From an uncultured virus (IMG/VR IMGVR_UViG_2687453726_000008) (taxonomy: Duplodnaviria > Heunggongvirae > Uroviricota > Caudoviricetes): a DNA stretch of 22,869 nucleotides. The stretch is taken from IMG/VR virus record IMGVR_UViG_2687453726_000008; one strand, given 5' to 3'. The position numbers and the translations under genes were made by a program. The notes under the pieces were generated by a model. The model worked only from the letters and a program-made list of their open reading frames with translations, did no database searches and had not been told where the DNA came from. Below, piece by piece: positions 1,938 through 22,869 of the stretch. How positions within the stretch are numbered: the stretch's first letter is position 1; each line of letters begins with the position of its first letter.

Positions 1938-3387
<1,450 letters not shown>

Positions 3388-8787: not shown

Positions 8788-9874
8788 ACGTGAGTTCGAT
8801 GGAAAAATTTAAGGGATAAAAAATCCCATCAAAATGTTTTATTATATAAGTGCGACCAAATAAATAAAACAAAGGATGGGATTTTATGCAAAACTTATTA
8901 GTGGAAATATTTTATGATGTAGACAATTTTTGTATTGGATTTGAAAATTACTGTAAAAGTCATTTCCTAACGGAAAATAGCGACCGCAAATTTGCAATGA
9001 TTAAAAGTAAAACTTTATCATTAAGCGAAGTTATGACAATAACTATCTACTTTCATTTGTCAAATTACAGAACTTTTAAATCATACTATATTGAGCATGT
9101 GTCTACTGTTCTCAAACCGTATTTTCCTAAGCTTGTGAGCTACAATAGGTTTGTTGAATTAATGCAACAATCATTAGTTGCACTACTATTATACATGATG
9201 AAATTTAGAACTGGCAAGTGCACAGGAATTTCTTTTATCGATTCTACAACTTTGAATGTATGCCATAATAGAAGAATACACTCTCATAAGGTTTTTAAAG
9301 GAATTGCAGAACGTGGTAAAAGTTCAACGGGCTGGTTTTATGGTTTTAAGCTTCATCTTGTTGTTAACGATAAAGGGGATATTCTCTCTTTTTATCTAAC
9401 TCCGGGAAATGTAGATGATAGAGAAATTAAGACTATAGAAATATTAGCAAAAGATTTATTTGGAAAACTTTTTGGTGACAAAGGTTATTTATCTAAAAAG
9501 ATCTCCGATATTTTGTATTCCAAAGGCATTCAGCTTATAACAAAGATAAAGAAAAACATGAAAAATAAATTAATGTTAATGGAGGATAAAATTCTTCTTA
9601 GGAAAAGAGCTATCATTGAAACAATAAATGACCAACTAAAAAATATATGTCAGATAGAGCATAATCGACATAGAAGTTTTACTAATTTTGCGGTTAATAT
9701 AGTTTCAGGATTGATTTCATATAGTTTTCTTCCTAAGAAACCTTCTCTTAAGTTGGACAAATATCTAACTATGGAATAATTGGAATATCGAACCACAAGA
9801 TTACAAGGATACTTTTTTGCTTTTTTTCATAACCATATTTACCCATAAAATATTCTAGCTTTTCGAACTCACGT
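8788..9874 (+). mobile_element. IS982-family insertion sequence (1087 bp)
   Basis: Perfect terminal IR ACGTGAGTTCGA/TCGAACTCACGT. 6-bp target duplication TAATTA at 8782-8787 and 9875-9880. Confidence 0.93.
8886..9779 (+). CDS. IS982-family DDE transposase
   Basis: Motifs SYNRFVEL, FIDST, GWFYGFKLH, FGDKGY, RAIIETINDQLKN. Confidence 0.95.
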   Translation: MQNLLVEIFYDVDNFCIGFENYCKSHFLTENSDRKFAMIKSKTLSLSEVMTITIYFHLSNYRTFKSYYIEHVSTVLKPYFPKLVSYNRFVELMQQSLVALLLYMMKFRTGKCTGISFIDSTTLNVCHNRRIHSHKVFKGIAERGKSSTGWFYGFKLHLVVNDKGDILSFYLTPGNVDDREIKTIEILAKDLFGKLFGDKGYLSKKISDILYSKGIQLITKIKKNMKNKLMLMEDKILLRKRAIIETINDQLKNICQIEHNRHRSFTNFAVNIVSGLISYSFLPKKPSLKLDKYLTME

Positions 9875-9918: not shown

Positions 9919-10101
9919 AGTTTGAATTTATAACGTTAGATTTGTATTTTGAAATTCGTAAAATTTGTACAACACGAACATTAATTCTAATATGCATCAT
10001 ATGAAGATTGAATAATGAGGTCCATAAAATAGTAGTTAGATACAAAATATGGTATAATATCCTAATATAGCAGAGGTAATAGGATGGAAGGAGTATAAAA
10101 T

Positions 10102-10779
10102 ATGAATGAACTATATTTAATGCAATTAGATTATTTATTAAGGCTCTTTATTGCTGCAATATGTGGGATGGCTATTGGATATGAAAGAAAGAATCGAATG
10201 AAAGAGGCTGGAATTAGAACACATTTTATTGTAGCTATAGGGGCAGCACTTATAATGATTATATCGAAATATGGATTTCAAGATCAGATAGGATGGCTCA
10301 ATATGTCTCTTGATCCATCACGTATAGCAGCTCAGGTTGTCACAGGAGTTGGATTCCTTGGTGCAGGGATAATTTTTATGCAAAAACAAACAATAGTAGG
10401 ATTAACAACGGCAGCAGGAGTTTGGGCTACAGCTGCTATAGGTTTAGCTATAGGTTCTGGACTTTATTTTGTTGGGATAGCAGCTACTGCTATTACTATA
10501 TTGGGACAAATACTTTTGCATGGTAAAATTAAATTTTTATCATCTCCAAGGACAGAGTCATTAGCGTTGCAGATTGTGGATGAGCCAGATGCTATTAAAT
10601 TTCTTCAAGAAATATTTGAAGATAATGAGATAACTATAATTAATTTAAAGAGCAAAAGAGATGAAAAATCCTTATTAATTGATTTGAAAATAGTGATAAG
10701 AATATATGAATCATTTAATATAATTAAATTCTTGAATATATTGCAAAGTAAAGATTTTGTAAAGTCTTTAGAATTTTAA
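10102..10779 (+). CDS. MgtC/SapB family membrane protein
   Basis: Motifs IGYER..AGIRTH, DPSRIAAQVVTGVGFLGAG, GLTTAAGVW. C-terminal ACT-like domain. AAGGAG RBS; TGGTATAAT promoter near 10050. Confidence 0.93.
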   Translation: MNELYLMQLDYLLRLFIAAICGMAIGYERKNRMKEAGIRTHFIVAIGAALIMIISKYGFQDQIGWLNMSLDPSRIAAQVVTGVGFLGAGIIFMQKQTIVGLTTAAGVWATAAIGLAIGSGLYFVGIAATAITILGQILLHGKIKFLSSPRTESLALQIVDEPDAIKFLQEIFEDNEITIINLKSKRDEKSLLIDLKIVIRIYESFNIIKFLNILQSKDFVKSLEF

Positions 10780-10830
10780 GGGAAAATAAATTGTGCTAAT
10801 AAAGAATAAATTTAATGAAAATAATGGATA

Positions 10831-10874
10831 TAAAAATACCGTAGTATTCAAAAATGAATTTGCGGTATTTTTTA
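10831..10874 (+). terminator. Rho-independent terminator
   Basis: TAAAAATACCGTA...TGCGGTATTTTTTA. Confidence 0.75.
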
Positions 10875-11126
10875 TAGTTTAAATATTATTTAACACTATG
10901 AACGTATGCAAATTTGTGTTCAGTGTATATTTAAAAATTTCTAAAATTACATATTTAGAAAAACTTTATATTTTTATACGCTTAAAATTAATAATAAAAT
11001 GTTATAGTATTTCTTATTTTGTTACTCTTCCACATAATATTAAGTGTTCATTAATGAATTATTAAACACTTAGACAATAAAGAGCATAATATAATCATAA
11101 GTTAATTTATGAACGGGGGAATATTA

Positions 11127-11528
11127 ATGGAGAATTCGACCATTGAAGAATTACAAGAACGAATTAGTTTATATAAAGATAAAATAGAGTTACTAACCAA
11201 AGATAATGTTAGACTATATAACGAAATAGAAGAAATAAAAGTTGATACAAATGTTATTAGCTCCAAGGAATATGATATTCTATTAGATAATATGGAATTA
11301 TTAAAATCGGAACTTGAAAAGTATAAGAATTTATATTTTCGCGAAAAACAGAAAAGTAAAGTTCATATAGTAAAGAAGTCAAAAATTGTTGGAAGAAAAC
11401 CTGTATCGGATGAATTAAGAAATAAAGTATTAGATTTAAAAAAGCAAGGATCAAATATAAGGAGCATTGCTAAGGAATTGAATATTGCGCTTGGTATTGT
11501 TCACAAAATAATTAATGAACAAAAATGA
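11127..11528 (+). CDS. Coiled-coil protein with C-terminal resolvase-type HTH
   Basis: GGGGGA RBS before ATG 11127. Motif GRKP...QGSNIRSIAKELNIALGIVHKII. Confidence 0.75.
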   Translation: MENSTIEELQERISLYKDKIELLTKDNVRLYNEIEEIKVDTNVISSKEYDILLDNMELLKSELEKYKNLYFREKQKSKVHIVKKSKIVGRKPVSDELRNKVLDLKKQGSNIRSIAKELNIALGIVHKIINEQK

Positions 11529-11567
11529 TAAGTGAAATATCTATACAATGCTAAAATAGAATGTATG

Positions 11568-11618
11568 AAAAGGAGCATATCAGGATAATTAAAAATTATC
11601 TTAATATACTCCCTTTTG
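11568..11618. terminator. Bidirectional terminator between convergent HTH genes
   Basis: AAAAGGAG...GATAATT-AAA-AATTATC...CTCCCTTTT imperfect stem. Confidence 0.55.
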
Positions 11619-11688
11619 TTTTATTTTTCTAAATTAAATTACCATAAAAGTCTAAATATAAATTTTCCTACATTATAATATAAGAAAT

Positions 11689-11970
11689 TTAATCAAGATA
11701 ATTTTTAGGAAGATTGAATGCTTTAATTATTTTCTTCTTTGATGGCAAACTTGGATTAAAAATTCCTCTTTCCCATTGACCAATAGTGACTACTTTTCTA
11801 TTGATCTTTTTACCGAATTCAATCTGGGAAAGTCCGCTAAGATATCTAAGCTTACGAATTCTATTTGTTATATTATCTTCAAGGTCATTAAAAATAGCAT
11901 TAGCTAAAAATTCCCTATAATTAACAGTAAATAGCTCGAATACACTTTTAAATGTTGCACTTTTATACAG
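11689..11970 (-). pseudogene. Start-less XRE-family HTH gene, interrupted at an att junction (not in ORF track)
   Basis: Manual translation: LYKSATFKSVFELFTVNYREFLANAIFNDLEDNITNRIRKLRYLSGLSQIEFGKKINRKVVTIGQWERGIFNPSLPSKKKIIKAFNLPKNYLD*. No in-frame ATG/GTG/TTG before the HTH; upstream in-frame TAA at 12037-12039. Confidence 0.8.
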
Positions 11971-11978
11971 GTTGCAAC
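11954..11978. other. Putative attR-like junction of the left element
   Basis: Abrupt switch into pilus-ATPase coding sequence. Local IR GTTGCA...TGCAAC. The arm at 11956-11970 is a 10/15 inverted match to 12066-12080. Confidence 0.55.
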
Positions 11979-12063
11979 CGGTTCTGGCAAAACTACTACA
12001 ATCTATACAATATTGAAAGAAATAGATTCCAAAGCTTTAAATATAACGACGTTGGAAGATCCA
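11971..12063 (+). pseudogene. Internal 31-codon fragment of a PilB/GspE/ComGA-family secretion/pilus ATPase gene
   Basis: Translates to VATGSGKTTTIYTILKEIDSKALNITTLEDP: Walker A (TGSGKTTT) plus Asp box (NITTLEDP) at family-typical spacing. Confidence 0.88.
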
Positions 12064-12081
12064 GAAAGTTTTAAATTGCAC
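12050..12081. other. Putative attL of the right-hand prophage
   Basis: ATPase homology stops right after EDP (12063-12064), about 20 bp beyond the integrase stop codon. Confidence 0.7.
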
Positions 12082-12084
12082 TAA

Positions 12085-13521
12085 CTAATAAATCAAGAGA
12101 TTATCACCATCCCATACTAATTTATCGAAAATTATGTTTATCAAATTTTGTTTATCCTCTAAATTTATTTTATTAAAATGTTTTACAAATTCATTTTTAG
12201 CTAGTTCTTTGTTTTTAAGCATTTCATCCTTTTTGCTTTTGTTATTTAGAACTATTTGATATTTGGTGTATTGCACATTTAGTTCTTCGATTTCGAGTGA
12301 GAGCTGTTCTGCTTTGTCTAACATAGATTTTGCAACAGCAGTTGAAGCAAGAGCAGACTTTTCCAAAAAACCATCATACATCTTTTTCTTTTTCTTAAGT
12401 TGTTTTTCTATATTTTCAGCAATATTAAATTCAATATTTTCATCATTTTTATTTAAGATTTTTTCAAGATTTCCGTTTTTTAAAGTAGAAAAAATTTTAT
12501 CTTCTATTTCATCAACTCTTATTCCTGAAAAACAATTTTTCTTGCATCTAAAATACATAGGCCTAGTTCCGTCTTTTCTTATGCTTCCATAGTTTATGCT
12601 CATTATTTTATTACATTGTTTACATATGATTTTATGTGCTAGCCAACTTTTAGTAGATATTCTAGGTGGTACATGTTCCAATGCCCTTAGCCTTTCTCTA
12701 ACTTTTATCCAAAGAGTAGAGTTTATTATTCCTTTATTTTGTGTTATTACCGCCAAATTAACCATTTTATCTTTTATAAACTTGTTGTATTTATAAGTCA
12801 TATAGCCATTACCATTAGGTTCTCCAATTACTTTATATCCAATAGTGGACAGGTATTTGTTGGAAATTTCATCTGATATTAAATAAATAGGATTTCTCAA
12901 AACAGTTCCTAAATTTCTAGGTGTTATTCCAGTTTCCTTAGAAATCGTCCACATAGAGTTACCAATAGAAAATTGGTTAAAAATATATAGGATTTCTTCT
13001 TTTTTCTCGATTTCCAAATACTTACCTCCAATTCCTTCAGAAGCAACACAACCATAAGGAGGAGTTCCTCCGCTCCAGCGACCTTGTTTAGCTAAACTAT
13101 ACATACCATCAATAGCACGTCTTTTAATATTTTCTCTTTCCATTTCAGCTAAAGAAGCTAATAACGTCATCATCATTTTTCCAGCAGGAGTTCTGGGATC
13201 ATAATTATCCTGAACACAAACCAAATCGACTCCAATTTTTTTTAACTCCTCAAATGTATTAAGGAAATCTAGAGTATTTCTAGCCATCCTATCAAGCTTA
13301 TAACAAGCAACAACATCAAATTCATTATTATGAGCATTAGCTATCATTTGTTTAAATGCCGGTCTGTTTATGCTTCCGCCGCTAAACCCATCATCAGTAT
13401 ATACAACAAACTTGCAGTTTTCTTTATTGAAATAATTTTTTATTATTTCAAGTTGCGCATCTATTGAAATACTATTTTCATCCCCTTTTACAGACTTTCT
13501 TAAATATGCTGCGATTTTCAT
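12085..13521 (-). CDS. Large serine recombinase (phage integrase)
   Basis: Motifs YLRKS (catalytic Ser), DDGFSG, KLDRMARN, LRNPIY, zinc ribbon CKQC...YFRCKKNC, coiled coil. AAAGGGTG RBS favours ATG 13521. Confidence 0.96.
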   Translation of the reverse strand: MKIAAYLRKSVKGDENSISIDAQLEIIKNYFNKENCKFVVYTDDGFSGGSINRPAFKQMIANAHNNEFDVVACYKLDRMARNTLDFLNTFEELKKIGVDLVCVQDNYDPRTPAGKMMMTLLASLAEMERENIKRRAIDGMYSLAKQGRWSGGTPPYGCVASEGIGGKYLEIEKKEEILYIFNQFSIGNSMWTISKETGITPRNLGTVLRNPIYLISDEISNKYLSTIGYKVIGEPNGNGYMTYKYNKFIKDKMVNLAVITQNKGIINSTLWIKVRERLRALEHVPPRISTKSWLAHKIICKQCNKIMSINYGSIRKDGTRPMYFRCKKNCFSGIRVDEIEDKIFSTLKNGNLEKILNKNDENIEFNIAENIEKQLKKKKKMYDGFLEKSALASTAVAKSMLDKAEQLSLEIEELNVQYTKYQIVLNNKSKKDEMLKNKELAKNEFVKHFNKINLEDKQNLINIIFDKLVWDGDNLLIY

Positions 13522-13536
13522 AAAATTCACCCTTTC

Positions 13537-13548
13537 GAATGTATGTTC
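13537..13548 (-). promoter_or_regulatory. LexA (SOS) box upstream of the integrase
   Basis: GAACatacATTC on the minus strand, abutting the integrase RBS. Confidence 0.6.
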
Positions 13549-13589
13549 TTTTTTGCGTATAGAAAATTCAGTCTAACCTAAACTTGTGA

Positions 13590-13892
13590 TTAGATTACAT
13601 TAGTTGCAAATTGGATTAAGCGTTGCAAAGCTATTGGGTTATTTTCAAATTCAATAGCTTCGCTTTCACATTCAGGAGTTTCTAAGTCGCTATTAAAATG
13701 TCTTAAGTGAATTAATTCATGTAGTAATTTCTTTATATTATATTCATAAGTCAAATTCGAATTTAGAATAATAACTTTTTGCCCGTTGTTGTCAATTGTT
13801 GCCCCTGTGAAAGTACATTCTAAATTAGTAAAAACAACTCTCAATTCTCCACAATCAATCATCTTTTTTGCATTTTTCATTATGTTAACCAT
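13590..13892 (-). CDS. ImmA/IrrE-family metallopeptidase (anti-repressor)
   Basis: IILNSNL...LLHELIH (HExxH)...CESEA. Located between repressor and integrase. Confidence 0.85.
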   Translation of the reverse strand: MVNIMKNAKKMIDCGELRVVFTNLECTFTGATIDNNGQKVIILNSNLTYEYNIKKLLHELIHLRHFNSDLETPECESEAIEFENNPIALQRLIQFATNVI

Positions 13893-13906
13893 AGTAATAC
13901 CACCCT

Positions 13907-14257
13907 TTAGCTTTCTGTTTCTTCCTCAAACATCTCAATCATTTTTATTATTTTATTTTTATCTTTTTCAGTTAATTTTTCAAATTTGGAGAAGAATATC
14001 TTATTTTTTTCTATGTATTCATCAAGCTTATTAGTTTTAGATATGTCTTCTGAATCAGAAATATCACTTTCAAAAAATTCATTTACAGAAACATTAAAAG
14101 CTTTTGCAAGAAGTTCAAGAGAATCAGTTTCTATTTTTCTTTTTCCGTTCTCCATTTTACTTATAGTAGACTGAGGGATTCCTGTTAATTCGGATACATC
14201 ATAGGTTGTCAAATTTCTATTTAATCTTAAAAGTTTTAGCTTCTCATGAGGTTTCAT
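13907..14257 (-). CDS. Phage repressor, XRE-family HTH (ImmR/CI-like)
   Basis: LKLLRLNRNLT..VSELTGIPQSTISKMENG. Divergent from cro. AAAGGTG RBS before ATG 14257. Confidence 0.9.
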   Translation of the reverse strand: MKPHEKLKLLRLNRNLTTYDVSELTGIPQSTISKMENGKRKIETDSLELLAKAFNVSVNEFFESDISDSEDISKTNKLDEYIEKNKIFFSKFEKLTEKDKNKIIKMIEMFEEETES

Positions 14258-14284
14258 TAAAATCACCTTTCTATTTTCCTGTTT

Positions 14285-14437
14285 AATTCTATTTTAGAAT
14301 AATTCAAAAATAGAATTATGTCAAGCATTTTGAAGAAAAACGGAGCAATAGCGAGCTAGTTTAAGTATTTAATTCTAAAATGGAATTGTAAACGAAAAGA
14401 TTTAATTCTATAATGTAATTAATTCGAAAATGGAATT
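14285..14437. promoter_or_regulatory. Lysis/lysogeny switch: five 17-bp operators and divergent promoters
   Basis: AATTC-N7-GAATT-like sites at 14285, 14301, 14371, 14404 and 14421. Leftward TTGACA-17-TATTCT (14324-14296). Rightward TTGTAA-17-TATAAT (14386-14414). Confidence 0.88.
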
Positions 14438-14448
14438 GAGGTGAGAAA

Positions 14449-14643
14449 ATGGAAGTAGGAAATAGAATTAAAGAACTAAGAAAACAAAAAAATATGTCAC
14501 AAAACAGCCTAGCAAAAAAAATAAAGAATTTAAACCAGTCTCAAATATGCAAAATCGAAAATGGAGATAGATCTATTAAAGCAGACGAGCTTAAAGAAAT
14601 TGCACACGCTTTGAATATTCCAGTTTCAGAATTATTAAATTAA
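14449..14643 (+). CDS. Cro-like XRE HTH protein
   Basis: 64-aa HTH; GAGGTG RBS; first gene of the early operon. Confidence 0.9.
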   Translation: MEVGNRIKELRKQKNMSQNSLAKKIKNLNQSQICKIENGDRSIKADELKEIAHALNIPVSELLN

Positions 14644-14787: not shown

Positions 14788-14983
14788 AATTGTGATTTCC
14801 AGATCACCCGAAAAGTCTTACTAAACTACGCAACATAATTTTCAAATAGTTAAGCAAGAAATTTAATTAATATAACAAATCTTATTTATCATATCTCACA
14901 ACTCGAAGCAATTACATTCAGTAATTTTCAGCTAAGAGTAAATATTAAATTTAAGTATAGAAGGAAGTGAGGAAATTATAAAA

Positions 14984-16063
14984 ATGAATGATTTAACTAT
15001 TGACAATGAGTTTAAAGACTTACTACCTCCATTATCAGAGGAACAAAAGGAAGAGCTCGAAAAAGACATAATTAAAAATGGTTGCATAAATTCACTAACT
15101 GTATGGAAGAACATTTTGATAGATGGCCATCACAGGCATGAGATATGCACAAGGAATAATATTCAATTCGATATAGTTGAAATGGAATTTAAGGACAGGC
15201 TCGAGGCTATGGAATGGATTTGGATGAATCAAAAAAATAGAAGAAATTTAACTAAGTATGAGTTAGCACAAATAGCACTGAAGTTTAAGCCAGTAATAGA
15301 AGCTAAAGCTAAAGAAAATCAATTATCAACACTTAAACAAAATACCGTTTTGACGAAATCATCAAAACGGGAAGATGAAAGAAAAGAGTCTGTTGAAGAA
15401 AACACCAACCTAGTTGATTCTGATGGAAATCAACCGATAGATGGACAAATTGATTTTACAGAAATAAATGAAGAAAAAGTGAAAAAGGTAGAGCCTATAA
15501 ACACTAGAAAGGAGATAGCAAAAATAGCAGGAGTTTCAGAGGATACAATCCATAAGGTTGAAGTTATCGAAGAAAAAGCTCCAGAAGAAATTAAGCAGCA
15601 AGTGAAGAAGGGAGACATAACAATTAATAGTGCTTATGTTCTTACTAAATCAGCTATAGAGGCAGACAAAAAGAACGCTGAATATGAAAAAGAGTACCAG
15701 GAGCAGTTGGAAAAAGAACAGCAAGAGAATGAAGAAAAGAAGAAGTTAGAAGAAATTCAAAAGAACCTTCCAGAAAATGCAGTTGTATTAGATAAATTCA
15801 GGAAACCAAAAGAAGCTCATATTTTTGGAATTGAAGACTTCAATAACCTAACAATGGATCAATTTAATGATTGTATAAAGCATTCTAAAAAATATCGTGA
15901 TGCAATTAGTAAAGTTGCATTATTAAGTACAGATATAGAGGCATTAATGGCATGGGGAGCAATAGCCAATACTCCAGATATTGTAGAAATAGAGCTACAA
16001 GATATTAATTCAGCTATCCAAAATTTAATTAAGATACAGAACTATTTTAAAGGAGGCAAGTAA
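14984..16063 (+). CDS. Phage ParB/Srx N-terminal-domain protein with HTH and coiled-coil C-terminus
   Basis: Motifs LPPLSEEQ..LEKDIIKNG, LIDGHHR, NQKNRRNLT, HTH TRKEIAKIAGVSEDTIHK. Confidence 0.82.
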   Translation: MNDLTIDNEFKDLLPPLSEEQKEELEKDIIKNGCINSLTVWKNILIDGHHRHEICTRNNIQFDIVEMEFKDRLEAMEWIWMNQKNRRNLTKYELAQIALKFKPVIEAKAKENQLSTLKQNTVLTKSSKREDERKESVEENTNLVDSDGNQPIDGQIDFTEINEEKVKKVEPINTRKEIAKIAGVSEDTIHKVEVIEEKAPEEIKQQVKKGDITINSAYVLTKSAIEADKKNAEYEKEYQEQLEKEQQENEEKKKLEEIQKNLPENAVVLDKFRKPKEAHIFGIEDFNNLTMDQFNDCIKHSKKYRDAISKVALLSTDIEALMAWGAIANTPDIVEIELQDINSAIQNLIKIQNYFKGGK

Positions 16064-16064
16064 T

Positions 16065-16466
16065 ATGAGTGAAGCATTAGAAAAAAAGGCCAAAGAAAAG
16101 ATACTAGAACAGATGGACGAGCTTGGCGGAGAAATAACTACAGATGACGTTGTAGAGCTATTAAGACCACACTATATATTTAATATCCGTAAGCTTAGGG
16201 AACAAGCGTTAAGAAGGACAGCCAATAACTTAATGGCAACATACCGTGATAATAAAGGTGTTAGAACTTGTTTTAGCTGTAAGGATGATAGCGGAAATTC
16301 AAAATATTTTAATATCGAAACTACAACTGATTTAAAAGCATTAAAAAACATTGAAATCCAGTTAAATAAAAAATATAAAGGTCTTAATATTTCTAAGAAA
16401 AAAGTTCAAAGAAGAAGAGACGAGCTTTCAGGACAAGTATCATTTAAAGAAGTTGAAAATTCATAG
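16065..16466 (+). CDS. Hypothetical phage protein
   Basis: AGGAGG RBS; adjacent to the ParB-like gene stop. Confidence 0.8.
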   Translation: MSEALEKKAKEKILEQMDELGGEITTDDVVELLRPHYIFNIRKLREQALRRTANNLMATYRDNKGVRTCFSCKDDSGNSKYFNIETTTDLKALKNIEIQLNKKYKGLNISKKKVQRRRDELSGQVSFKEVENS

Positions 16467-16485
16467 ATTGAGGAGGAATTATAAG

Positions 16486-16926
16486 ATGCAAAAATACAGA
16501 TTACACGTTGATGAGACAATAAACAGATTAAACTTCATTGATATTGAAACAGAGCTAAATGAAAAAGAAGTTGATGCATTACTTACTAAAATTGAAAAAG
16601 AGGATATTACAAGTGCATTAGATTTAAAGCGAAGATTAGAGACACAAGGTGTGCAAGTAAAATCAATAAGAGTAGATAATGGACCTTATTACAGAAGAGC
16701 TGAAACATTGGAAATTGAGGAGCTAGAAGATGTCAAAAGGAAAGGAATTATGGTTAAGTTCAAAGCTTGTGATTTAAGCAAATCAATAATTGAACAAGCT
16801 ATCGATGAACTAAGGGAAAGGATGCATATTAGTATTTCAGTAAATGGGCCACAGTCTGACACAACTATTAAAATAAGTCAGCAACTGGATGAATTGATTG
16901 TTGTAGAAATGAGGTCTAGGATATGA
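16486..16926 (+). CDS. Phage protein with C-terminal Spo0E-like domain
   Basis: GAGGAGG RBS favours ATG 16486. C-terminus IDELRERMH...TIKISQQLDELI matches the Spo0E SQxLD signature. Confidence 0.72.
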   Translation: MQKYRLHVDETINRLNFIDIETELNEKEVDALLTKIEKEDITSALDLKRRLETQGVQVKSIRVDNGPYYRRAETLEIEELEDVKRKGIMVKFKACDLSKSIIEQAIDELRERMHISISVNGPQSDTTIKISQQLDELIVVEMRSRI

Positions 16927-17111
16927 AAAAATGTGAAGATTGTGATGAATGCACATATATAGGCGAAGGTGATTATGTCTGCATTAAGGATGAACCTAAA
17001 ATTGTTATTACTGAATTTATTATTGCAACAGATGATTATGGACAATGTGGAAATAAAAAAGCTACCAAGAACCCCGACCAAAGCGTTCAAAGTAGCTACA
17101 ATAAGTTTTGA
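16923..17111 (+). CDS. Small Cys-rich phage protein
   Basis: CEDCDEC..GEGDYVC; ATGA overlap with the upstream gene. Confidence 0.7.
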   Translation: MKKCEDCDECTYIGEGDYVCIKDEPKIVITEFIIATDDYGQCGNKKATKNPDQSVQSSYNKF

Positions 17112-17154
17112 AAATATTTCAAGAACATTATAACACATGAGAGGAGGAATTCAA
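17052..17154 (-). ncRNA. Putative antisense RNA in the early operon (with its promoter)
   Basis: Minus-strand TTGAAT-16-TATAAT with extended TG (17154-17127), then stem AGCUAC...GUAGCU plus U-tract, loop CUUUGGUCGG. Confidence 0.6.
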
Positions 17155-17376
17155 GTGTTAGTTAGATGTCAGTGGAAAACTTGCATTAATTACAAGGATG
17201 GAATGTGTAAAGCTCCTGCAATAGAACTTAAGAGCTTTGACTATGAAGAAGATAATGAGGAACTTGAGGGATTAAAATGCGACAGTTATAAATATGATTC
17301 CTTTTGGATGTGTAAAGAAGGTAGAGAAGTTGACTCTAAAGATTTTAATAAGGAGGCTGATGTAGTTGGCAAATAA
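17155..17376 (+). CDS. Small Cys-rich phage protein (DUF1540-like)
   Basis: GTG 17155 after GAGGAGG. Motif VRCQWKTCINYKDGMCKAPAI. Confidence 0.7.
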   Translation: MLVRCQWKTCINYKDGMCKAPAIELKSFDYEEDNEELEGLKCDSYKYDSFWMCKEGREVDSKDFNKEADVVGK

Positions 17377-18199
17377 TCAGATACAAGCATATGTGATAGG
17401 TGCATTAAATGAGAAATTAACTAGTATGTTAGAAATAGAAAAGAAGGCACTCCCAGAAGGTTTTAATGGACTTAGGTTTAAGCAAAATGTTCTAAGGGTT
17501 TTAAATACTGTTAACTTAGAAAATATGAAAGGGCAGGAGTTTAACCTTGCTAAATGTATAATGCGTGGAGCATATCTGGACTTAGATTTTGCTAACAATG
17601 AATGCTATGTAATTACCTACAAGGGCAAACCGGAATTTATGACAGATTACAAAGGCGAAACCAAGCTTGTTAGGAAGTTTAGTTCTAAAAAAATTAAAGA
17701 TATTTATGCAAAGCTAGTTCGTTATGGTGATGAGTTTGAAGAAGGTGTTGACCATGGTAAGCCATATGTAAACTTTAAGCCAAAGCCATTTAATAATGAT
17801 GATATTACGGGAGTTTTTGCAGTTGTTTATTACGAAGATGGTGCGATGGAATACGAAACAATGTCTAAGGAAGAGGTTGAGTATATTCGAGACAATTGGA
17901 GCAAAAAGGATAAGTATGGGAAGTTTTCTGCTGCATGGGTAAAGAGCTTTGGTGAAATGGCAAAAAAGACTGTTTTGAGAAGACTTTGCAAACATATAAA
18001 TATTGATTTTGATAACATTAAGCAGCTTGAAGCATGGGAAGAAGGTTCGGATATGGAATTTGAAAATGAAAAACCCAAAGAAGCTGCTACAGAAAAAAGT
18101 GATCTTGAAAAAGAATTAGAGGAGAATGAGGACATTGTTAAACAAACTGATTTTGTAGATACTCCATTTGAGGAGGTTAATGAATATGGTGATAACTAA
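17366..18199 (+). CDS. recT: RecT-family single-strand annealing protein
   Basis: Motifs ECYVITY, DYKGE, MSKEEVEYIR, W...FGEMAKKTVLRRLCK; acidic tail. Confidence 0.92.
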   Translation: MANNQIQAYVIGALNEKLTSMLEIEKKALPEGFNGLRFKQNVLRVLNTVNLENMKGQEFNLAKCIMRGAYLDLDFANNECYVITYKGKPEFMTDYKGETKLVRKFSSKKIKDIYAKLVRYGDEFEEGVDHGKPYVNFKPKPFNNDDITGVFAVVYYEDGAMEYETMSKEEVEYIRDNWSKKDKYGKFSAAWVKSFGEMAKKTVLRRLCKHINIDFDNIKQLEAWEEGSDMEFENEKPKEAATEKSDLEKELEENEDIVKQTDFVDTPFEEVNEYGDN

Positions 18200-18953
18200 A
18201 GAGAATTATTACAGCATAGAAGCCGATTTAAGCACTATGTCAGTATCACAGTACAAACTATTTAAGCAATGTGAATTAATGGCTATGGCAAAGCTAAAAG
18301 GGGAATATAAACAGAGTGAAAGTGATGCATTCCTATTAGGCAAATATATTCATTCATGGAGTGAAGGAACTTTAGATGATTTTAAAAAAGAAAATCCAAG
18401 CTTATATTCAACTCAAGGCAAAACTAAAGGGGAATTAAAATCAACTTTTAAAGTAGCTGAAACAATGGTTAAGTCCTTAGCAGATGATTCGAATTGTATG
18501 AAATTTTTGCAAGGCAAAAAAGAAGTAATCATTCAAGGCGAATTATTTGGTATTAAGTGGCGTGGAATGGTTGATGTATTGAACTTAGAAAAAGGATTCT
18601 TTACAGATTTAAAGACAACCCAAGGAATCCATAAAAAATATTGTGGATTGACCTTTATTGAGCATTACGGGTATATAGAACAAATGGCAATTTATAGAGA
18701 GTTAATTAAACAACAATTTGGCAAAGACTTAATTCCATACATTGTTGCAATAGAAAAGAATGATAATCCGCTTAAAGCAATAATTAAAGTAGATGAAAGG
18801 TACACCACACCAAAGCTTGAGGAAATTGAGTACAACATCGGGCGCATTATAAAAGTTAAAAGTGGAGAAGAAAATCCAATTGCGTGTGGTTTATGTGATT
18901 ATTGCAGAGCTAATAATAAGGTAACTCAAATTTTAACAATAGAAGAATTGTAG
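18186..18953 (+). CDS. PD-(D/E)XK exonuclease (RecE/DUF3799-like), RecT partner
   Basis: Motifs ENYYS, MSVSQYK, G.VD, DLKTT, Y..QMAIY, CGLCDYC. GAGGAGG RBS favours ATG 18186. Confidence 0.88.
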   Translation: MVITKENYYSIEADLSTMSVSQYKLFKQCELMAMAKLKGEYKQSESDAFLLGKYIHSWSEGTLDDFKKENPSLYSTQGKTKGELKSTFKVAETMVKSLADDSNCMKFLQGKKEVIIQGELFGIKWRGMVDVLNLEKGFFTDLKTTQGIHKKYCGLTFIEHYGYIEQMAIYRELIKQQFGKDLIPYIVAIEKNDNPLKAIIKVDERYTTPKLEEIEYNIGRIIKVKSGEENPIACGLCDYCRANNKVTQILTIEEL

Positions 18954-18961
18954 GTGATTGA

Positions 18962-19756
18962 ATGGCTAAAGTGTACTATTGGCTTAAATTAAATAAGGAT
19001 TTTTTCAAAGGTAAAGAAATTAAGAAACTAAGGAAAATAGCTGGTGGAGATACTTACACAATAATATATTTGAAGCTTCAATTACTTAGTCTTAAGGATG
19101 AAGGAAAGCTGTATTTTGATGGAATAGAAGAAACATTTGCGGAAGAATTAGCCTTAGAACTAGATGAAGATTCAGACAATGTAAGTTTTGTATTAATGTA
19201 TCTAAAAAAGTGCGGATTACTGAAAGAAATTTCAGATTCAGAGTTACTTTTGAATGAGGTTCCAACGTCAATAGGAAAAGAGACAGATAAGGCTCAACTA
19301 ATGAGAAATAAACGCTTTAAGAATAAAAAATTAATAGAAAGTGGTAACAATGTTACCGAAGAGTTACCACCTGTTACTTTTTGTTACACAGAGATAGAGA
19401 TAGAGAAAGAGATAGAGAAAGATATAGATATAAATAAAAAAACTAAAAAAAGAAAAATAACTTCGATTGATTCTTTAATTAACAACTATACCAGTAATGA
19501 AGAATTGAGAAATACTTTAGTTGATTTTATAAAAATGAGAAAGTCAATTAAAAAACCTATGACGGATAGAGCTTTACAGATAATGCTTAAGAAGCTAAAG
19601 GGCTTATCGGAAAATGAAGAAATACAAATTAAAATTTTAGAAAATAGCATAGAGCATTGTTGGCAAGGCATATTCGAACTTAAAGAAGACCATAAGAACC
19701 AGACAACTATATCTAACAATAAAAAACAATATGATGCATTTCAATTTGATGAATAG
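18962..19756 (+). CDS. Phage replisome organizer / replication initiator
   Basis: N-terminus YYWLKLNKDFF...IKKLRKIAGGDTYTIIYLKL; EIEIEKEIEKDID linker. Confidence 0.9.
   Translation: MAKVYYWLKLNKDFFKGKEIKKLRKIAGGDTYTIIYLKLQLLSLKDEGKLYFDGIEETFAEELALELDEDSDNVSFVLMYLKKCGLLKEISDSELLLNEVPTSIGKETDKAQLMRNKRFKNKKLIESGNNVTEELPPVTFCYTEIEIEKEIEKDIDINKKTKKRKITSIDSLINNYTSNEELRNTLVDFIKMRKSIKKPMTDRALQIMLKKLKGLSENEEIQIKILENSIEHCWQGIFELKEDHKNQTTISNNKKQYDAFQFDE
19343..19431. repeat. Putative phage replication origin (iterons within rep)
   Basis: GGTAAC plus GTTAC at 19352, 19363, 19373 and 19383, followed by GAGATA/GAGAAA repeats and an A-rich tract. Confidence 0.7.
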
Positions 19757-19774
19757 CTAAATAGAGGTGATTAG

Positions 19775-21088
19775 ATGGATACAGAACAGTTACAAATACT
19801 ACCGCAAAATATAAGAGCTGAACAAGAACTCTTATCAGGTATATTTTATAACCCTAAGATAATAGTACAAGCAGTAAATGAGTTGAAAACAAATGATTTT
19901 TATAGATCAAGCCATCAATTAATATTTAACGCAATGTGTGCATTATTTGCAGACGGGAAAGAAATAGGAATAACGCCCATTATAGAGGTTTTAGGAAAAG
20001 ACAGTCTAGTATACGTCGGAGGGGTTTCATACCTCACAGAACTAATGACAGGTGGGTTTAAATTAAATGTAAAACAATACGTGGACATTATAAAAGATAA
20101 GTCCTTCAGAAGAAAGGCGATAAAATCATTAAATTCAGCTATGAATGCATTGTATGACGATAAAATTAAACCAGATGTTTCAATTAGTAAAATGTCAAAT
20201 GAATTAAGCCAAACAGAAGACAAAAGCCAAATACTAAATGATACGCAGTTACTTAATGCCACAATATCAAAGATAGAAGAAAGATATGCTAATGGTGGAG
20301 ATATTCCAGGCATGAAAACAGGATTTCATGACTTTGATAGAGCAACAAATGGAATGAATAAAGGAGACTTATTTGTAATCGGTGCTCGTCCATCAATGGG
20401 GAAAACAGTTACTGCTTTAAACATAGCTGACGGACTAGCGAAAAACGGTAATAATGTGCTTGTATTTGAAATGGAAATGGTAGAAACAGCATTGGGAAAT
20501 AGGAGATTGGCTTTCAATTCAAATGTTGAAGCACAGAAATTAAAAACAGGAAAACTTAATGCAGAAGAGTTTGAAAGAATACTTATGGCAGCTAACAAAT
20601 TATCTAAGAGAAATGGAATATTTACAGATTGCAGCAGCTACCAAAACACATTAACTATAAAAGCTAAGACTAAAGCAGTAAAACAAACTCATGGTTTAGA
20701 TGTGGTAATTGTAGATCACTTAACGTTAATGGACATACCTAACACTGGAAATAGATCGTCAGATATTGGTGAAGTTACAAGACAATTAAAGATGATGGCT
20801 AAAGAATTAGAAGTAACAGTAATCGTATTATCACAATTATCTAGAAAAGTTGAAGAGAGGGCAGATAAGAGACCAACATTGGCGGATTTAAGAGAATCTG
20901 GGAATATTGAACAAGATGCAGACTTGATAATGTTCTTGTATCGTGATGAATATTACAACAAAGAAACAGAAGACAGAAATATTATTGAATGGATAATAGC
21001 GAAGCAAAGAGATGGAGCAGTTGGAACACTTAAATTCTATTACTTGGATAAGCTCCAAAAGATCGCAAATATAGATTGTTTAAGGTAA
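19775..21088 (+). CDS. dnaB: DnaB-family replicative helicase (phage)
   Basis: Motifs GARPSMGKT, IVDHL, LSQLSR, DLRESGNIEQDAD, AKQRDG. Confidence 0.95.
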   Translation: MDTEQLQILPQNIRAEQELLSGIFYNPKIIVQAVNELKTNDFYRSSHQLIFNAMCALFADGKEIGITPIIEVLGKDSLVYVGGVSYLTELMTGGFKLNVKQYVDIIKDKSFRRKAIKSLNSAMNALYDDKIKPDVSISKMSNELSQTEDKSQILNDTQLLNATISKIEERYANGGDIPGMKTGFHDFDRATNGMNKGDLFVIGARPSMGKTVTALNIADGLAKNGNNVLVFEMEMVETALGNRRLAFNSNVEAQKLKTGKLNAEEFERILMAANKLSKRNGIFTDCSSYQNTLTIKAKTKAVKQTHGLDVVIVDHLTLMDIPNTGNRSSDIGEVTRQLKMMAKELEVTVIVLSQLSRKVEERADKRPTLADLRESGNIEQDADLIMFLYRDEYYNKETEDRNIIEWIIAKQRDGAVGTLKFYYLDKLQKIANIDCLR

Positions 21089-21099
21089 AGGAGAAATAA

Positions 21100-21495
21100 A
21101 TGGTAGTAGTTGAAGGAACAATAAAAGGTAAAGGACGGCCTAGATTTTTTAATGGACATGCAACAACTCCTGGAGATACAGTGACTTATGAAAATTGGGT
21201 AAGAATTTGTTATCAGCAGCAGGATAGAAGGTATTTAGAAGGTTCTATAAAGGCAACAATTATAGCTTACTACAAAATACCTAAGAGTTATTCAAAGAAA
21301 AGGTTAGAAGCGATAAGGGCGGGGATAGAGCGTCCACAGAAGAAACCTGATATTGATAATGTAGCTAAGGTTATTTTGGATAGTTTAAATAAAATTGCCT
21401 ATAAGGACGATAGCCAGATCACAGAATTGATTGTTAAGAAAGTATTTACTGAAGAATTAGAAAGAGTCGAATTTGAATTGGAGGTAATAAGATAA
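21100..21495 (+). CDS. rusA: RusA-family Holliday junction resolvase
   Basis: Motifs GKGRPRF, KKPDIDNVAKVILDSLNKIAYKDDSQI. Confidence 0.93.
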   Translation: MVVVEGTIKGKGRPRFFNGHATTPGDTVTYENWVRICYQQQDRRYLEGSIKATIIAYYKIPKSYSKKRLEAIRAGIERPQKKPDIDNVAKVILDSLNKIAYKDDSQITELIVKKVFTEELERVEFELEVIR

Positions 21496-21920
21496 TGGGT
21501 AAAACAAGTGAATTAGTGGATTTAAGTAAGAGAGTATTAAGTATAGATATTGATAGTCCTGTATTTAATGCAATGTTAACTGATTTAAATGAGGAAATAC
21601 AAAGAGTTATAAAAAGTGTATATAATGGTGAATTTGCAAGTGGGGAAATATCTTTAAAATTGGATTTAAAAATAAGAGATGCTTATAAGGAAATACCTGC
21701 AACAGATGATTACGGGAATATAATAAATGATAAATATGAATATAAAAAACCTACTTTTGAACACAAGATAACATCAACTTTAAAGAAGCAATATAATTCA
21801 AAAGGTTGCTATGACGAGAATAAAGAAGTTGTATGGGATGATATAAATGGAAAATATGTAGTGCAACCACTAATAAATCCTCAAATGAATTTCATGGATA
21901 TAAATAAGAACAGAGGGTAA
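21495..21920 (+). CDS. Hypothetical phage protein
   Basis: GGAGGT RBS; TAATG coupling with rusA. Confidence 0.8.
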   Translation: MGKTSELVDLSKRVLSIDIDSPVFNAMLTDLNEEIQRVIKSVYNGEFASGEISLKLDLKIRDAYKEIPATDDYGNIINDKYEYKKPTFEHKITSTLKKQYNSKGCYDENKEVVWDDINGKYVVQPLINPQMNFMDINKNRG

Positions 21921-22027
21921 GTGAGTTCTTGCAGGACTAGGAGTGTTAGCAGCAGGGATTACAATTGCTAATGTTAAGGTTACTGCAAATTAAGAGGGGA
22001 TTATTCCCCTCAACATAATAAATTGAG

Positions 22028-22683
22028 GTGAGAATATTGGAAAAACCAATTTTATTTAATACAGATATGGTTAAGGCAATTCTTGAAGGAAGAAAAACAA
22101 CCACGAGAAGAATTATAAAGAATGTTGGGAATAGAGAACTACTAGAACATGAAGGCGAATATTACAAATTTGGATATAGATCTAATGCAGTTGCTGGAAC
22201 AATATACAGTGCTATTAATTGGTGCAAACCCAAGTTTGAAATTGGAGACATACTTTATGTTAGAGAAACATGGTTGGCGCATTCAGAGGAGTTAATACAC
22301 TAGCTTTTAAATATAAGGCAGATAGTGAGGTTAATGATTGTATATCTTTTACAAAAGAGAGATTTAATAAATTCTATAAATTTGCAGATCAAGAAAAGTG
22401 GCAGCCGTCATTATTTATGCCGAAAGAAGCAGCAAGGATATTTCTAAAAATAAAAAAGATTTATCCTGAAAGATTAAAAATGATTGAAGCAGGTGAATGT
22501 AAAAAGGAAGGAATAAAGCTAGATTTTGAAATTACTGACTCATTTACTGCAAGTGAATATATATCAGCTTTTGAAGATTTATGGAATAGCACTCTAAATA
22601 AATCTCAAGTCAAATATATGTGGCATGAAAATCCTTGGGTATGGGTAATTGAATTTGAAAGGGTGGGGAAATATGAAATTTAA
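22028..22683 (+). pseudogene. ASCH/PUA-like phage protein split by a frameshift
   Basis: N-half KPILFNTDMVKAILEGRKTTTRR...LYVRETW and C-half KWQPSLFMPKEAARI...NPWVWVIEFE belong to one protein family but lie in different frames (shift ~22271-22300). Confidence 0.8.
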
Positions 22684-22869
22684 ATCGAATTAGAAGAAAA
22701 AGTAGTTTACAGACATACTTTAACAGTTGAAGCTGACTCAGATGTTGAAGTAGAGTATGCGTTAGATGTTTTGGAAAGAGACGGTATGCATCCAGATGAT
22801 ATTGAGGGATATTTAAGCGATAACAATGTGAAAATACTTGAATTTGATAAGGACGAAAGTGGAGAAGTT
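22673..22869 (+). pseudogene. Partial phage gene with an apparent 1-bp deletion near its start
   Basis: GGGTGGGG RBS then ATG AAA TTT AAA hits a stop. The adjacent frame is open from 22684 to the window end (IELEEKVVYRHTLTVEAD...). Confidence 0.6.

What the first reader, a model, noticed from the sequence alone, without database searches (positions are those of the whole stretch)
11689..12087. XRE-HTH gene that appears to be assembled only across attP, directly behind the integrase
Seen: a clean XRE HTH frame (11970-11689, minus strand) has no start codon. Three nt after the integrase TAG (12087-12085), in the same frame, is a GTG (12081-12079) reading VQFKTF. It is also in frame with the HTH but hits TAA (12039-12037) inside the ATPase fragment. 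Removing exactly 11971-12063 gives a 99-aa protein MQFKTFLYKSATFKSVFELF...NYLD. Known precedent: attP lies inside the repressor gene of mycobacteriophage BPs. Inference: a regulator or directionality factor made only from the excised circle and translationally coupled to the integrase (the GTG lacks its own SD), or fused to it by readthrough, so recombination state controls gene existence.
Basis: partly seen in the sequence, partly recalled or inferred. Interest (0 to 1): 0.8.

Follow-up and report, generated by a model that had tools for sequence, protein, structure and literature searches.

The report
Split regulator gene between two prophages
The start-less DNA-binding gene belongs to a second mobile element next door, not to the neighbouring integrase, and its missing front end returns only when that element cuts itself out.

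Summary
A 93-codon XRE-HTH frame (11970-11692, minus) has no ATG/GTG/TTG. It is separated from the stop of a large serine recombinase (LSR, 12085-13530) by a short piece of a GspE/PilB-type ATPase gene.

Two independent elements sit in one ATPase gene. Prophage A, with the visible integrase, is inserted after 12064. An older element B lies to the left; its last gene is the HTH, inserted at the Walker-A codons (about 11977). Each element occurs alone elsewhere: A-type only in G004; B-type only in G024, G079, G089, L141 and DNA runs X14 and X16.

The half-site behind that LSR's stop supplies an open frame with two TTG codons that matches the HTH frame. RNA reads of a sister strain (X22) cross from the HTH into that half-site, which is an attP junction.

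In relatives the HTH is fused in frame to the LSR (phage CP51, 655 aa). In others it lies in the -1 frame behind a conserved A9 run. I found no paper describing this.

Interest 0.72. I rate it a new variant of a known kind.

The parts
11689..11970 (-). Start-less XRE-HTH ORF (93 codons plus stop). It is the att-proximal terminal gene of integrated element B. Its first ~9 codons are encoded by B's P' half-site.
   Evidence: HTH_3. Homologues. dN/dS. The same junction occurs in G024, G079, G089 and L141.
11940..11976 (.). Phage-side (P') half-site of element B's attR. It holds the distal motif AAAGTGCAACAT, the inverted partner of the P-arm motif found next to LSR_B in other genomes.
   Evidence: aligned junctions of 4 genomes; the inverted repeat is intact in attP-form locus L110.
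11977..12064 (+). About 88 nt of a GspE/PilB-type ATPase gene (Walker A to ..TLEDP), left between two independent insertion sites. It holds the host-side half-sites of attR(B) and attL(A).
   Evidence: PF00437, E 2.3e-8. (tblastn 11977-12063 and 11938-12063). (GspE/PilB, with a GspF/PilC gene next to it in G024). (an intact continuation follows 12064 in X14 and X16).
12065..12084 (.). Phage-side (P) half-site of prophage A's attL, directly behind the integrase stop.
   Evidence: it aligns with the P arm of L010 and with the complete attP inverted repeat of L004.
12085..13530 (-). Large serine recombinase of prophage A (481 codons from the GTG; ATG at the 4th codon).
   Evidence: Resolvase PF00239, E 1.5e-38. 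(95-96% identical in L002 and L003). (61% identical in L010, at the same ATPase site).
13590..14266 (-). Lysogeny module of prophage A: an ImmA/IrrE-like protease (13590-13892) and a cI-like XRE repressor (13907-14266). The early genes run rightwards from 14449.
10102..11688 (.). Right-hand end of element B as far as can be judged: MgtC (10102-10779) and a 139-aa coiled-coil + HTH ORF (11109-11528). Both are contiguous with the HTH in every strain seen. B's far end lies outside the window.
   Evidence: same order in L002 and L141. (no LSR_B and no ATPase N-terminus in the window). (RNA depth).

Best explanation
Two serine-recombinase elements are inserted 88 bp apart in one pilB/gspE-like ATPase gene. 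Prophage A starts at its integrase (12085-13530) and runs to the right. Element B lies to the left and ends with the HTH ORF.

In B's family (CP51-like LSRs), attP lies between the 3' end of the LSR gene and the HTH ORF. Integration therefore sends the LSR to one end of the element and the HTH to the other; they are 62.5 kb apart in G024. The integrated HTH ORF begins at the crossover itself and has no start codon, no Shine-Dalgarno sequence and no promoter of its own.

Excision rejoins it to the half-site behind the LSR stop. That half-site supplies an open frame with two TTG codons. Further upstream, an A9 run in the last codons of the LSR opens the same (-1) frame.

The HTH is thus made only from the excised or circular form. 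It is made either as a small protein, or, as I think more likely for part of the product, as a C-terminal domain added to the LSR by -1 slippage. In relatives without the A-run it is simply in frame (CP51 integrase, 655 aa).

What is shown:
- the two elements are independent;
- the junction anatomy;
- the frame relations in three species;
- the in-frame fusions;
- attP-type reads in RNA.

What is inferred:
- slippage occurs;
- the window's own B element is still active;
- the HTH acts as a marker of the excised state, tuning LSR directionality or att binding, or early gene expression.
For: Independence of A and B.
- G004 has an A-type LSR (61% identity) at the same ..TLEEP site. Its ATPase 5' part is intact through the Walker A.
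- G024, G079 and G089 have the HTH at the Walker A, with the ATPase intact through A's site. L141 shows the same.
- DNA contigs X14 and X16 match the window to 12064 and then continue as ATPase.

B's anatomy.
- In the complete chromosome G024 the ATPase halves lie at 3307013 and 3369550. The HTH sits at one end and a CP51-like LSR at the other.
- Without joining any DNA, one search shows the HTH frame is the -1 frame of the LSR in 3 of 3 species. That frame is open for 25-26 codons from an A9 run to the core and holds TTG codons 22 and 19 nt before the core.
- Gene calls P0037 and P0085 start MLHF at that place.

Fusions.
- LSR and HTH form one ORF in L067 (= CP51), L078, L088 and L116. Loci L066 and L110 are in attP form, with the -1 frame open for 177 and 173 codons from A9 into the HTH.
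- Six further proteins have a CP51-like C-terminus: five of 655-656 aa and one of 600 aa, all with Resolvase and Recombinase domains. HTH_3 is precomputed for 3 of them.
- Integrated CP51 relatives (L065, L069, L070) end one codon after the crossover.

A-run statistics.
- 41 of 80 LSR loci carry A>=8 in the last 60 nt. The background is 31 such runs in 112,065 nt of LSR bodies.
- All 41 are short ORFs. Of the 37 untruncated loci without a run, 24 read through the half-site in frame.

Selection. dN/dS is 0.22-0.44 at dS 0.7-1.2, with no stops in 5 lineages.

RNA.
- In X22, 9 reads leave the window at 11984 and continue into a sequence whose 24-nt core matches only the site behind the LSR_B stop of G079 (1 of 136 loci).
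- No reads continue into the ATPase.
- All 12 variant places of X22 in the HTH equal those of L141, where B is integrated.
Against: - B's LSR and the ATPase 5' part are not in the window, and the window's genome is not held. That this copy of B is complete or active is not shown.
- The attP-type reads are few (9). The library looks unstranded, they come from a sister strain, and carried-over DNA of circles or a tandem B-B junction would look the same.
- G079 has TTG at the homologue-start codon. Many family members inserted in another host gene have an ATG at or near the junction. Silence in the integrated state is therefore not universal.
- The A9 run may be a plain Lys-Lys-Lys tract in AT-rich DNA.
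- Six A-run loci have the +1 frame open, not the -1 frame. Thirteen short LSR ORFs have no run at all.
- Many of the 80 loci are close relatives, so the counts are not independent events.
- No protein evidence exists for either product.
Confidence: 0.8

Rival explanations
1. The HTH is the partner of the adjacent integrase (prophage A). Excision of A, or removal of 11971-12063, joins GTG 12081 to the HTH and yields a 99-aa regulator or directionality factor.
For: GTG 12081-12079, the integrase and the HTH share one frame. A's half-site (TTAGTGCAATTT) resembles B's (TTGTTGCACTTT), with the GTG at the place of B's second TTG.
Against: - Excision of A would join 12065 and beyond to A's far end, not to 11970.
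- Strains without A keep the HTH-ATPase junction.
- A-type relatives carry no HTH across attP.
- An 88-93-bp deletion would need two sites closer together than DNA can loop and would destroy both sites. This rests on established knowledge of LSR synapsis, not on a test here.
- No read or contig joint skips this interval in 4 runs (table 5: none).
Confidence: 0.03
2. The HTH ORF is a dying remnant: the terminal gene of a defunct element that lost its start codon. It has no present function.
For: There is no start codon, and the scan found no promoter above chance upstream. RNA depth is low, 1-4 against 30-190 for neighbouring genes. IS elements lie in the flanking DNA. B's other end is not visible.
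Against: - The frame is intact in 5 lineages at dS about 1, with dN/dS 0.22-0.44.
- The lack of a canonical start is itself conserved in 4 of 5 lineages.
- attP-type reads exist.
- The same ORF is fused to LSRs in phage genomes.
Confidence: 0.08
3. The HTH is translated from the integrated copy, from a non-canonical start (CTG 11970 or an ATT/ATA) or by read-in, and acts as an ordinary prophage regulator whatever the att state.
For: G079 has TTG at this codon. P0004, P0048 and P0083 are called with a start there. Family members inserted in the other host gene have an ATG near the junction.
Against: There is no Shine-Dalgarno-like sequence before CTG (read). In X22 all junction-crossing reads are of the attP type and none enters the antisense ATPase. 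ATT, ATA and CTG are very poor starts (established knowledge).
Confidence: 0.09

Closest known systems
Integration-dependent immunity of mycobacteriophages BPs, Brujita and cluster P (attP inside the repressor gene)
   Same: The attachment site lies inside or at the edge of a regulator ORF, so integrated and excised genomes encode different products. I saw only the search listing and the start of the abstract of PMC4557955 and the listings. The rest is recalled.
   Different: In those phages a tyrosine integrase is used and integration truncates the immunity repressor into its active form. Here a serine recombinase is used, and integration removes the front, not the back, of an HTH ORF. In many relatives the ORF is part of the recombinase gene itself. 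The separate cI/ImmA-type module seen beside the CP51 integrase suggests that the HTH is not the immunity repressor.
Integrase of Clostridium phage vB_CpeS-CP51 (YP_008058952.1, 655 aa)
   Same: It is an LSR of B's clade: 46% identical to LSR_B of G024 in alignment A2. Its last ~60 residues are 38% identical to the window's HTH.
   Different: It is annotated only as 'integrase'. In CP51 the HTH is in frame. The window holds only the HTH half, separated from its LSR by integration.
-1 programmed frameshift or transcriptional slippage on A-runs (IS3/IS1 OrfAB transposases, dnaX) - recalled, not read here
   Same: A run A_AAA_AAA sits at the end of an upstream ORF, with the downstream domain in the -1 frame. 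This would give a short and a long product.
   Different: It has not been demonstrated here. The downstream domain is present only in one recombination state. A sub-group has the +1 frame open instead.
Tn4451/Tn4453 (TnpX), where the joint of the circular form creates a promoter - recalled, not read here
   Same: It is a clostridial LSR element in which expression depends on the excised circle.
   Different: There a promoter is assembled for the recombinase gene. Here a coding frame is assembled for a DNA-binding domain.
Gene-intervening prophage-like elements (skin, SPbeta, gin)
   Same: LSR elements split a host gene that is restored by excision. I saw only the listings and abstract starts of PMC5499854 and PMC5595907.
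   Different: Those systems use separate directionality factors (SprB, for example). No att-spanning HTH is described in what I saw. The target here is a pilus or secretion ATPase gene, and it carries two elements at once.

Membership tests
XRE / HTH_3 (PF01381) | Match to the Pfam model above its gathering score | tested here: met
   32.9 bits against 23, E 6.6e-8, profile positions 1-55 of 55.
Large serine recombinase (integrase A, 12085-13530) | N-terminal resolvase catalytic domain | tested here: met
   PF00239, E 1.5e-38, positions 1-145 of 145; weak CcrB/CcrA/XisF-type matches, all below their cut-offs.
Large serine recombinase (integrase A, 12085-13530) | Zinc-ribbon or recombinase C-terminal domains above the cut-off | tested here: inconclusive
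   Zn_ribbon_recom scores 19.7 bits against a cut-off of 25.3. PF07508 is not listed.
Large serine recombinase (integrase A, 12085-13530) | Short att site with an inverted repeat directly behind the gene | tested here: met
   the half-site at 12065-12084 aligns with L010 and with the full inverted repeat of L004.
CP51-like LSR element with an att-spanning HTH (element B) | HTH ORF abutting the crossover at one end of the element | tested here: met
   the same junction occurs in the window, L141, G024, G079 and G089.
CP51-like LSR element with an att-spanning HTH (element B) | CP51-like LSR at the other end, reading towards the same split host gene | not testable with these tools
   It is met in G024, G079 and G089. 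For the window, the genome is not held and there is no LSR_B in the window.
CP51-like LSR element with an att-spanning HTH (element B) | An open frame links the LSR 3' end to the HTH in the attP form | tested here: met
   (3 of 3 species, -1 frame). (4 loci in frame, 2 in the -1 frame). For the window's lineage only 30 nt of the half-site are known, from reads.
Integration-dependent immunity (BPs type) | attP core inside the immunity repressor gene, a tyrosine integrase, and a truncated repressor that is the active form | tested here: not met
   The recombinase is of the serine type. The ORF loses its 5' end, not its 3' end. The CP51 locus has a separate cI/ImmA-type module. It works like this system in one respect only: the att site lies in a regulator ORF.
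Recombination directionality factor for an LSR | Binds the LSR and switches it to excision | not testable with these tools
-1 programmed frameshift / slippage site | Slippery run X_XXY_YYZ in the zero frame, with the -1 frame open downstream | tested here: met
   A9 read as AAA AAA AAA, with the -1 frame open for 22 or more codons in 12 of 18 loci that have flanking sequence.
-1 programmed frameshift / slippage site | Two protein products or heterogeneous transcripts | not testable with these tools
   No reads over an LSR_B A-run were available.

The most novel reading that the evidence does not exclude
In a whole clade of clostridial large serine recombinases the enzyme carries an XRE-HTH C-terminal domain only while the element is excised. 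attP lies inside the gene, either in frame or bridged by -1 slippage on a conserved A9 run. The recombinase thus senses its own recombination state, and this domain swap contributes to directionality or to the decision taken after excision. The window's HTH is the detached domain of such an enzyme, waiting at the far end of element B.
Probability: 0.4. Interest if true: 0.85.

Novelty: new variant of a known kind. Interest (0 to 1): 0.72.

Why it matters
Large serine recombinases are studied as one-way switches and are used as genome-writing tools. Their directionality is thought to rest on a separate accessory protein.

A family in which the recombinase gene itself, or a tightly coupled HTH ORF, is cut and re-formed by the reaction it catalyses would be a built-in record of state: one protein form from the circle and another from the prophage.

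It also has practical consequences.
- Annotation: such HTH ORFs look like start-less pseudogenes.
- Finding att sites: the site lies in a coding frame.
- Reading tandem insertions: a neighbouring integrase is not necessarily the partner.

For this window the practical result is simpler. The locus is two elements in one pilus or secretion ATPase gene, not one element with an odd tail.

Tried and rejected
- Whole genome of the window: not held.
- blastn of 11500-12400 against phages: no match.
- Word-based search for longer proteins holding the HTH: none of 43 candidates scored.
- Long HMMER hits with a C-terminal HTH match (11 proteins checked): multi-HTH repeat proteins, not recombinase fusions.
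- Alignment A1 was too divergent for a locus scan.
- G001, the 'nearest record', shares only prophage A's early genes (14860-22869, 97%) and nothing at the junction.
- P-arm motif in viral contigs: 0 matches.
- P-arm motif in 130 genomes of the genus: 4 matches. The only new one (G039) is an orphan half-site without an LSR.
- The record behind L141 is not held, so B's far end in that strain could not be fetched.
- Earlier findings of this scan: nothing by place, words or sequence.
- Promoter and terminator scan of 11500-12200: 5 promoter-like sites against 5.4 expected and no terminator, so it is uninformative.
- Paper searches found nothing on an LSR-HTH fusion across attP or on slippage in a serine recombinase gene (one malformed query). 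The library lacks most subscription journals, so this is weak evidence that it is not in print.
- Rejected idea: the ATPase piece is carried by the phage as a replacement or decoy. The piece is continuous with the rest of the gene in strains that lack A.
Full report
1. What is in the sequence

On the minus strand the integrase ORF ends with TAG at 12087-12085. The same frame then reads L-V(GTG 12081)-QFKTFWIFQRRYI, stops at TAA 12039-12037, and reopens for 115 codons to the stop at 11691-11689. The last 55 residues are an HTH_3 domain. No ATG, GTG or TTG in this frame leaves 40 residues or more.

On the plus strand, 11935-12084 contains ..VATGSGKTTTIYTILKEIDSKALNITTLEDPE... This matches the type II/IV secretion ATPase family PF00437 over profile positions 147-180 (E 2.3e-8).

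The window as a whole is a low-GC chromosome (26-33% GC).
- To the right of 12085 lies a prophage with ImmA-like, cI-like and Cro-like genes, RecT, a PD-(D/E)XK nuclease, a replisome organiser, DnaB and RusA.
- To the left lie MgtC, two IS transposases, an MBL-fold protein and a solute-binding protein.

2. The integrase belongs to prophage A, which is an independent insertion

Close copies of the integrase (95-96% identical) with the same order of integrase, ATPase piece and HTH occur in two IMG/VR records (L002 and L003).

A 61%-identical integrase in a named Clostridium sp. genome (L010, handle G004) is followed at once by the N-terminal 261 codons of the same kind of ATPase. That ATPase reads towards the integrase and breaks at ..INITTLEEP; the window breaks at ..LNITTLEDP. 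In G004 the ATPase 3' part starts a different contig (L018). The phage gene inside that end is a small secreted protein, not an HTH.

A 45%-identical integrase in a 41-kb viral contig (L004) is followed by a perfect inverted repeat and then by genes on the other strand. Again there is no HTH. The 20 nt behind the window's integrase stop align with these half-sites.

DNA contigs of two other runs (X14 and X16) follow the window from 10000 or 10775 up to 12064 and then continue with letters that read DPVEIVMPNINQ, the intact ATPase. A 294-kb contig (L141) shows the same. So the HTH-ATPase junction exists without prophage A, and A entered later at 12064/12065.

3. The HTH belongs to a second element, B

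A full HMMER search of 1.84 billion representatives with the 93-residue frame gave 575 hits at E <= 0.001. Most are generic or multi-HTH proteins. A handful of 78-107-residue proteins align from the first residue: P0004 (59% identical), P0037, P0048, P0083 and P0085.

In 123 scored genomes of G004's genus, 18 hold a homologue (19 places). The three closest, at 59-61% identity (G089, G024 and G079), all have the antisense of the same ATPase gene in front of the HTH, broken at the Walker-A codons exactly as in the window.

In the complete chromosome G024 the ATPase 3' part ends at 3307013 beside the HTH. The 5' part begins at 3369550 beside a large serine recombinase that reads towards it. The element between them is 62.5 kb. 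That recombinase (LSR_B) is:
- 46% identical to the integrase of Clostridium phage CP51 (alignment A2);
- 28% identical to the window's integrase;
- 88% identical to one at the end of a 59.6-kb provirus record.

The window holds no ATPase N-terminus and no second recombinase. B's other end is therefore outside the window or lost. The split gene is of the GspE/PilB type, with a GspF/PilC gene next to it.

4. Why the HTH has no start

The junctions of G024, G079, G089 and the window align. On the HTH side, host letters are followed by a conserved half-site whose outer motif (AAAGTGCAACAT) encodes the conserved K-S-A-T-F. On the recombinase side, the LSR_B stop is followed after about 25 nt by the inverted partner of that motif (TTGTTGCACTTT) and then by host letters.

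The codon where the called homologues begin is CTG in the window and L141, ATT in G024, ATA in G089 and TTG in G079.

One search worked out the frames from the position of the shared core on each side, without joining DNA. In 3 of 3 species:
- the HTH frame equals the -1 frame of LSR_B;
- that frame is open for 25-26 codons from an A9 run, which lies 5-6 codons before the LSR stop, down to the core;
- it contains two TTG codons, 22 and 19 nt before the core.

P0037 and P0085 carry the N-terminal extension MLHF.., which is what this half-site encodes. I read them as genes called on attP-form DNA.

The ORF is under purifying selection. dN/dS is 0.22-0.44 at dS 0.7-1.2 between the window and the three species, with no stop or frameshift in any lineage. 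L141 is also intact.

5. Relatives show the joined state directly

The CP51 integrase is annotated as 655 aa. Its last ~60 residues are 38% identical to the window's HTH.

A scan of IMG/VR with an alignment of this LSR clade returned 80 loci. Thirteen have an HTH homologue downstream on the same strand.
- In four (L067 = CP51, L078, L088, L116) recombinase and HTH form one ORF. In L088 the half-site peptide (..MLQF..) lies inside the ORF.
- In two (L066, L110) the recombinase stops at or just after an A9 run, and the -1 frame runs on from that run through an intact inverted repeat into the HTH, for 177 and 173 codons.
- The other seven have host-like DNA between recombinase and HTH. These are tandem arrays like the window's. 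L094 and L096, for example, lie on one 56-kb record, with an HTH at one end of the inner element and an LSR at the other.

Six further proteins in the large protein collection have a CP51-like C-terminus: five of 655-656 aa and one of 600 aa, all with Resolvase and Recombinase domains. HTH_3 is precomputed for three of them. Integrated relatives of CP51 (L065, L069, L070) end ..SFYSHSMSSI*, one codon past the point where CP51 continues into the HTH. Integration therefore truncates this enzyme.

6. The A-run

All counts are unless stated.
- 41 of the 80 loci have A>=8, mostly A9 read as K-K-K, within the last 60 nt of the recombinase ORF. The background is 31 such runs in 112,065 nt of the same genes' bodies, or about 0.017 per 60 nt.
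- All 41 ORFs are short, at most 486 codons from the start of the match.
- Of the 39 loci without a run, 2 are truncated, 24 are long (497 or more codons, reading through the half-site in frame) and 13 are short.
- Of 18 run-bearing loci with at least 75 nt of flank, 12 have the -1 frame open for 22-177 codons past the run. Six closely related ones (L111, L112, L130, L131, L134, L136) have -1 closed after 7 codons and +1 open for 40-112 codons.

The run A_AAA_AAA is the classical -1 slippery pattern (recalled knowledge). I propose that slippage fuses part of the recombinase to the HTH when the two are contiguous. This is inference. The loci are not independent, AAA is the common Lys codon in this DNA, and the +1 sub-group does not fit a simple -1 model.

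7. RNA

Two raw RNA runs with the same species label (X22, X23) were laid on 10000-14500.
- Neither has a single read on 12114-14500, so their strain lacks prophage A.
- MgtC and the 139-aa ORF are well covered (depth 30-190). The HTH is barely covered (depth 1-4).
- In X22, 9 reads that begin in the HTH leave the window at 11984 and continue with 30 letters. A 24-letter core of these matches, among the 136 loci held, only the site directly behind the LSR_B stop of G079. It recurs as an orphan half-site in G039.
- No listed reads continue into the ATPase.
- All 12 places where X22 reads differ from the window in the HTH are the letters of L141, a strain whose assembly has B integrated.

The simplest reading is that a fraction of cells carries excised (or tandem) B, and that the HTH RNA seen comes from that form, transcribed across attP. 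The caveats are the small number of reads, a library that looks unstranded, and the possibility of carried-over circular DNA.

8. Verdict on the interpretation

The particular reconstruction is not. The integrase next door belongs to another element. The 93-nt 'removal' is not a recombination event: the host piece is about 88 nt, and it carries the host halves of two different sites. No read or contig in four runs skips it. The shared frame of GTG and HTH is a 1-in-3 coincidence. The resemblance of A's half-site to B's, with GTG where B has TTG, explains why the model looked so neat.

9. What the HTH does is not known

My best guess (about 0.4) is that it marks the excised state, either as an extra DNA-binding domain of the recombinase or as a small partner made only from the circle. 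It would then affect directionality, att-site choice or early transcription.

It is unlikely to be the immunity repressor. Prophage A in the window, which is of another LSR clade, and the CP51 locus, which is of B's clade, both carry a separate cI/ImmA-type module.

10. Literature

I found no paper describing a serine recombinase with an att-spanning HTH or with slippage at its 3' end (listings and abstract starts only). The Tn4451 promoter-at-the-joint and the IS3-type frameshifts are recalled, not read here.

Noticed in passing
window 2018-3352 and 8886-9779: There are two IS transposase genes: an IS3-family gene (rve plus HTH domains) and a DDE_Tnp_1_3 gene. The second is absent from the otherwise collinear L002 and L141, where MgtC is followed by a small HTH_26-like ORF.
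   Followed up: partly
window 10102-10779 and 11109-11528: MgtC and a 139-aa coiled-coil + C-terminal HTH ORF (no NCBIfam match) are the well-expressed genes of this stretch in RNA runs X22 and X23 (depth 30-190). Many molecule ends fall at 10079-10087, 10796 and 11117-11129.
   Followed up: no
window 16453-16926 and 17137-17376: Prophage A carries a Spo0E-like domain ORF and a DUF1540 ORF among its early genes. These are possible sporulation-modulating cargo.
   Followed up: no
window 14860-22869 vs G001:34692-42713: An 85-kb provirus record shares prophage A's early region at 97% identity but has no match to its integrase/ImmA/cI module or to the junction. This indicates module exchange of the integration cassette.
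   Followed up: partly
L016, L030-L044, L094, L117-L119: A second host gene (..NLFCAGEKSGLFVGHTEA.., FAD-enzyme-like) is hit by CP51-like LSR elements at three or more sites and in both orientations. Tandem arrays there leave 100-700-nt host pieces between an LSR and the next element's HTH.
   Followed up: partly
L111, L112, L130, L131, L134, L136: A sub-group of A9-bearing LSRs has the +1 frame, not the -1 frame, open behind the run. A GC-rich hairpin (GGCGCT..AGCGCC) follows the run directly.
   Followed up: partly
L138 (G039 C40) 1380-1640: An orphan copy of B's recombinase-side half-site, identical to the one in the X22 reads, lies with no LSR beside it next to an IS91-like tyrosine-recombinase gene.
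   Followed up: partly
L032 (G023 C33): An A9 run, both half-sites and the HTH are contiguous in a chromosome. The ORF ending in ..CKKK* upstream looks like a host gene that continues in L034, not like an LSR.
   Followed up: no
L007, L013: More distant LSRs (35% identical to integrase A) are inserted in a GH18 (YaaH/YdhD-like) gene. This is another gene-splitting target.
   Followed up: no
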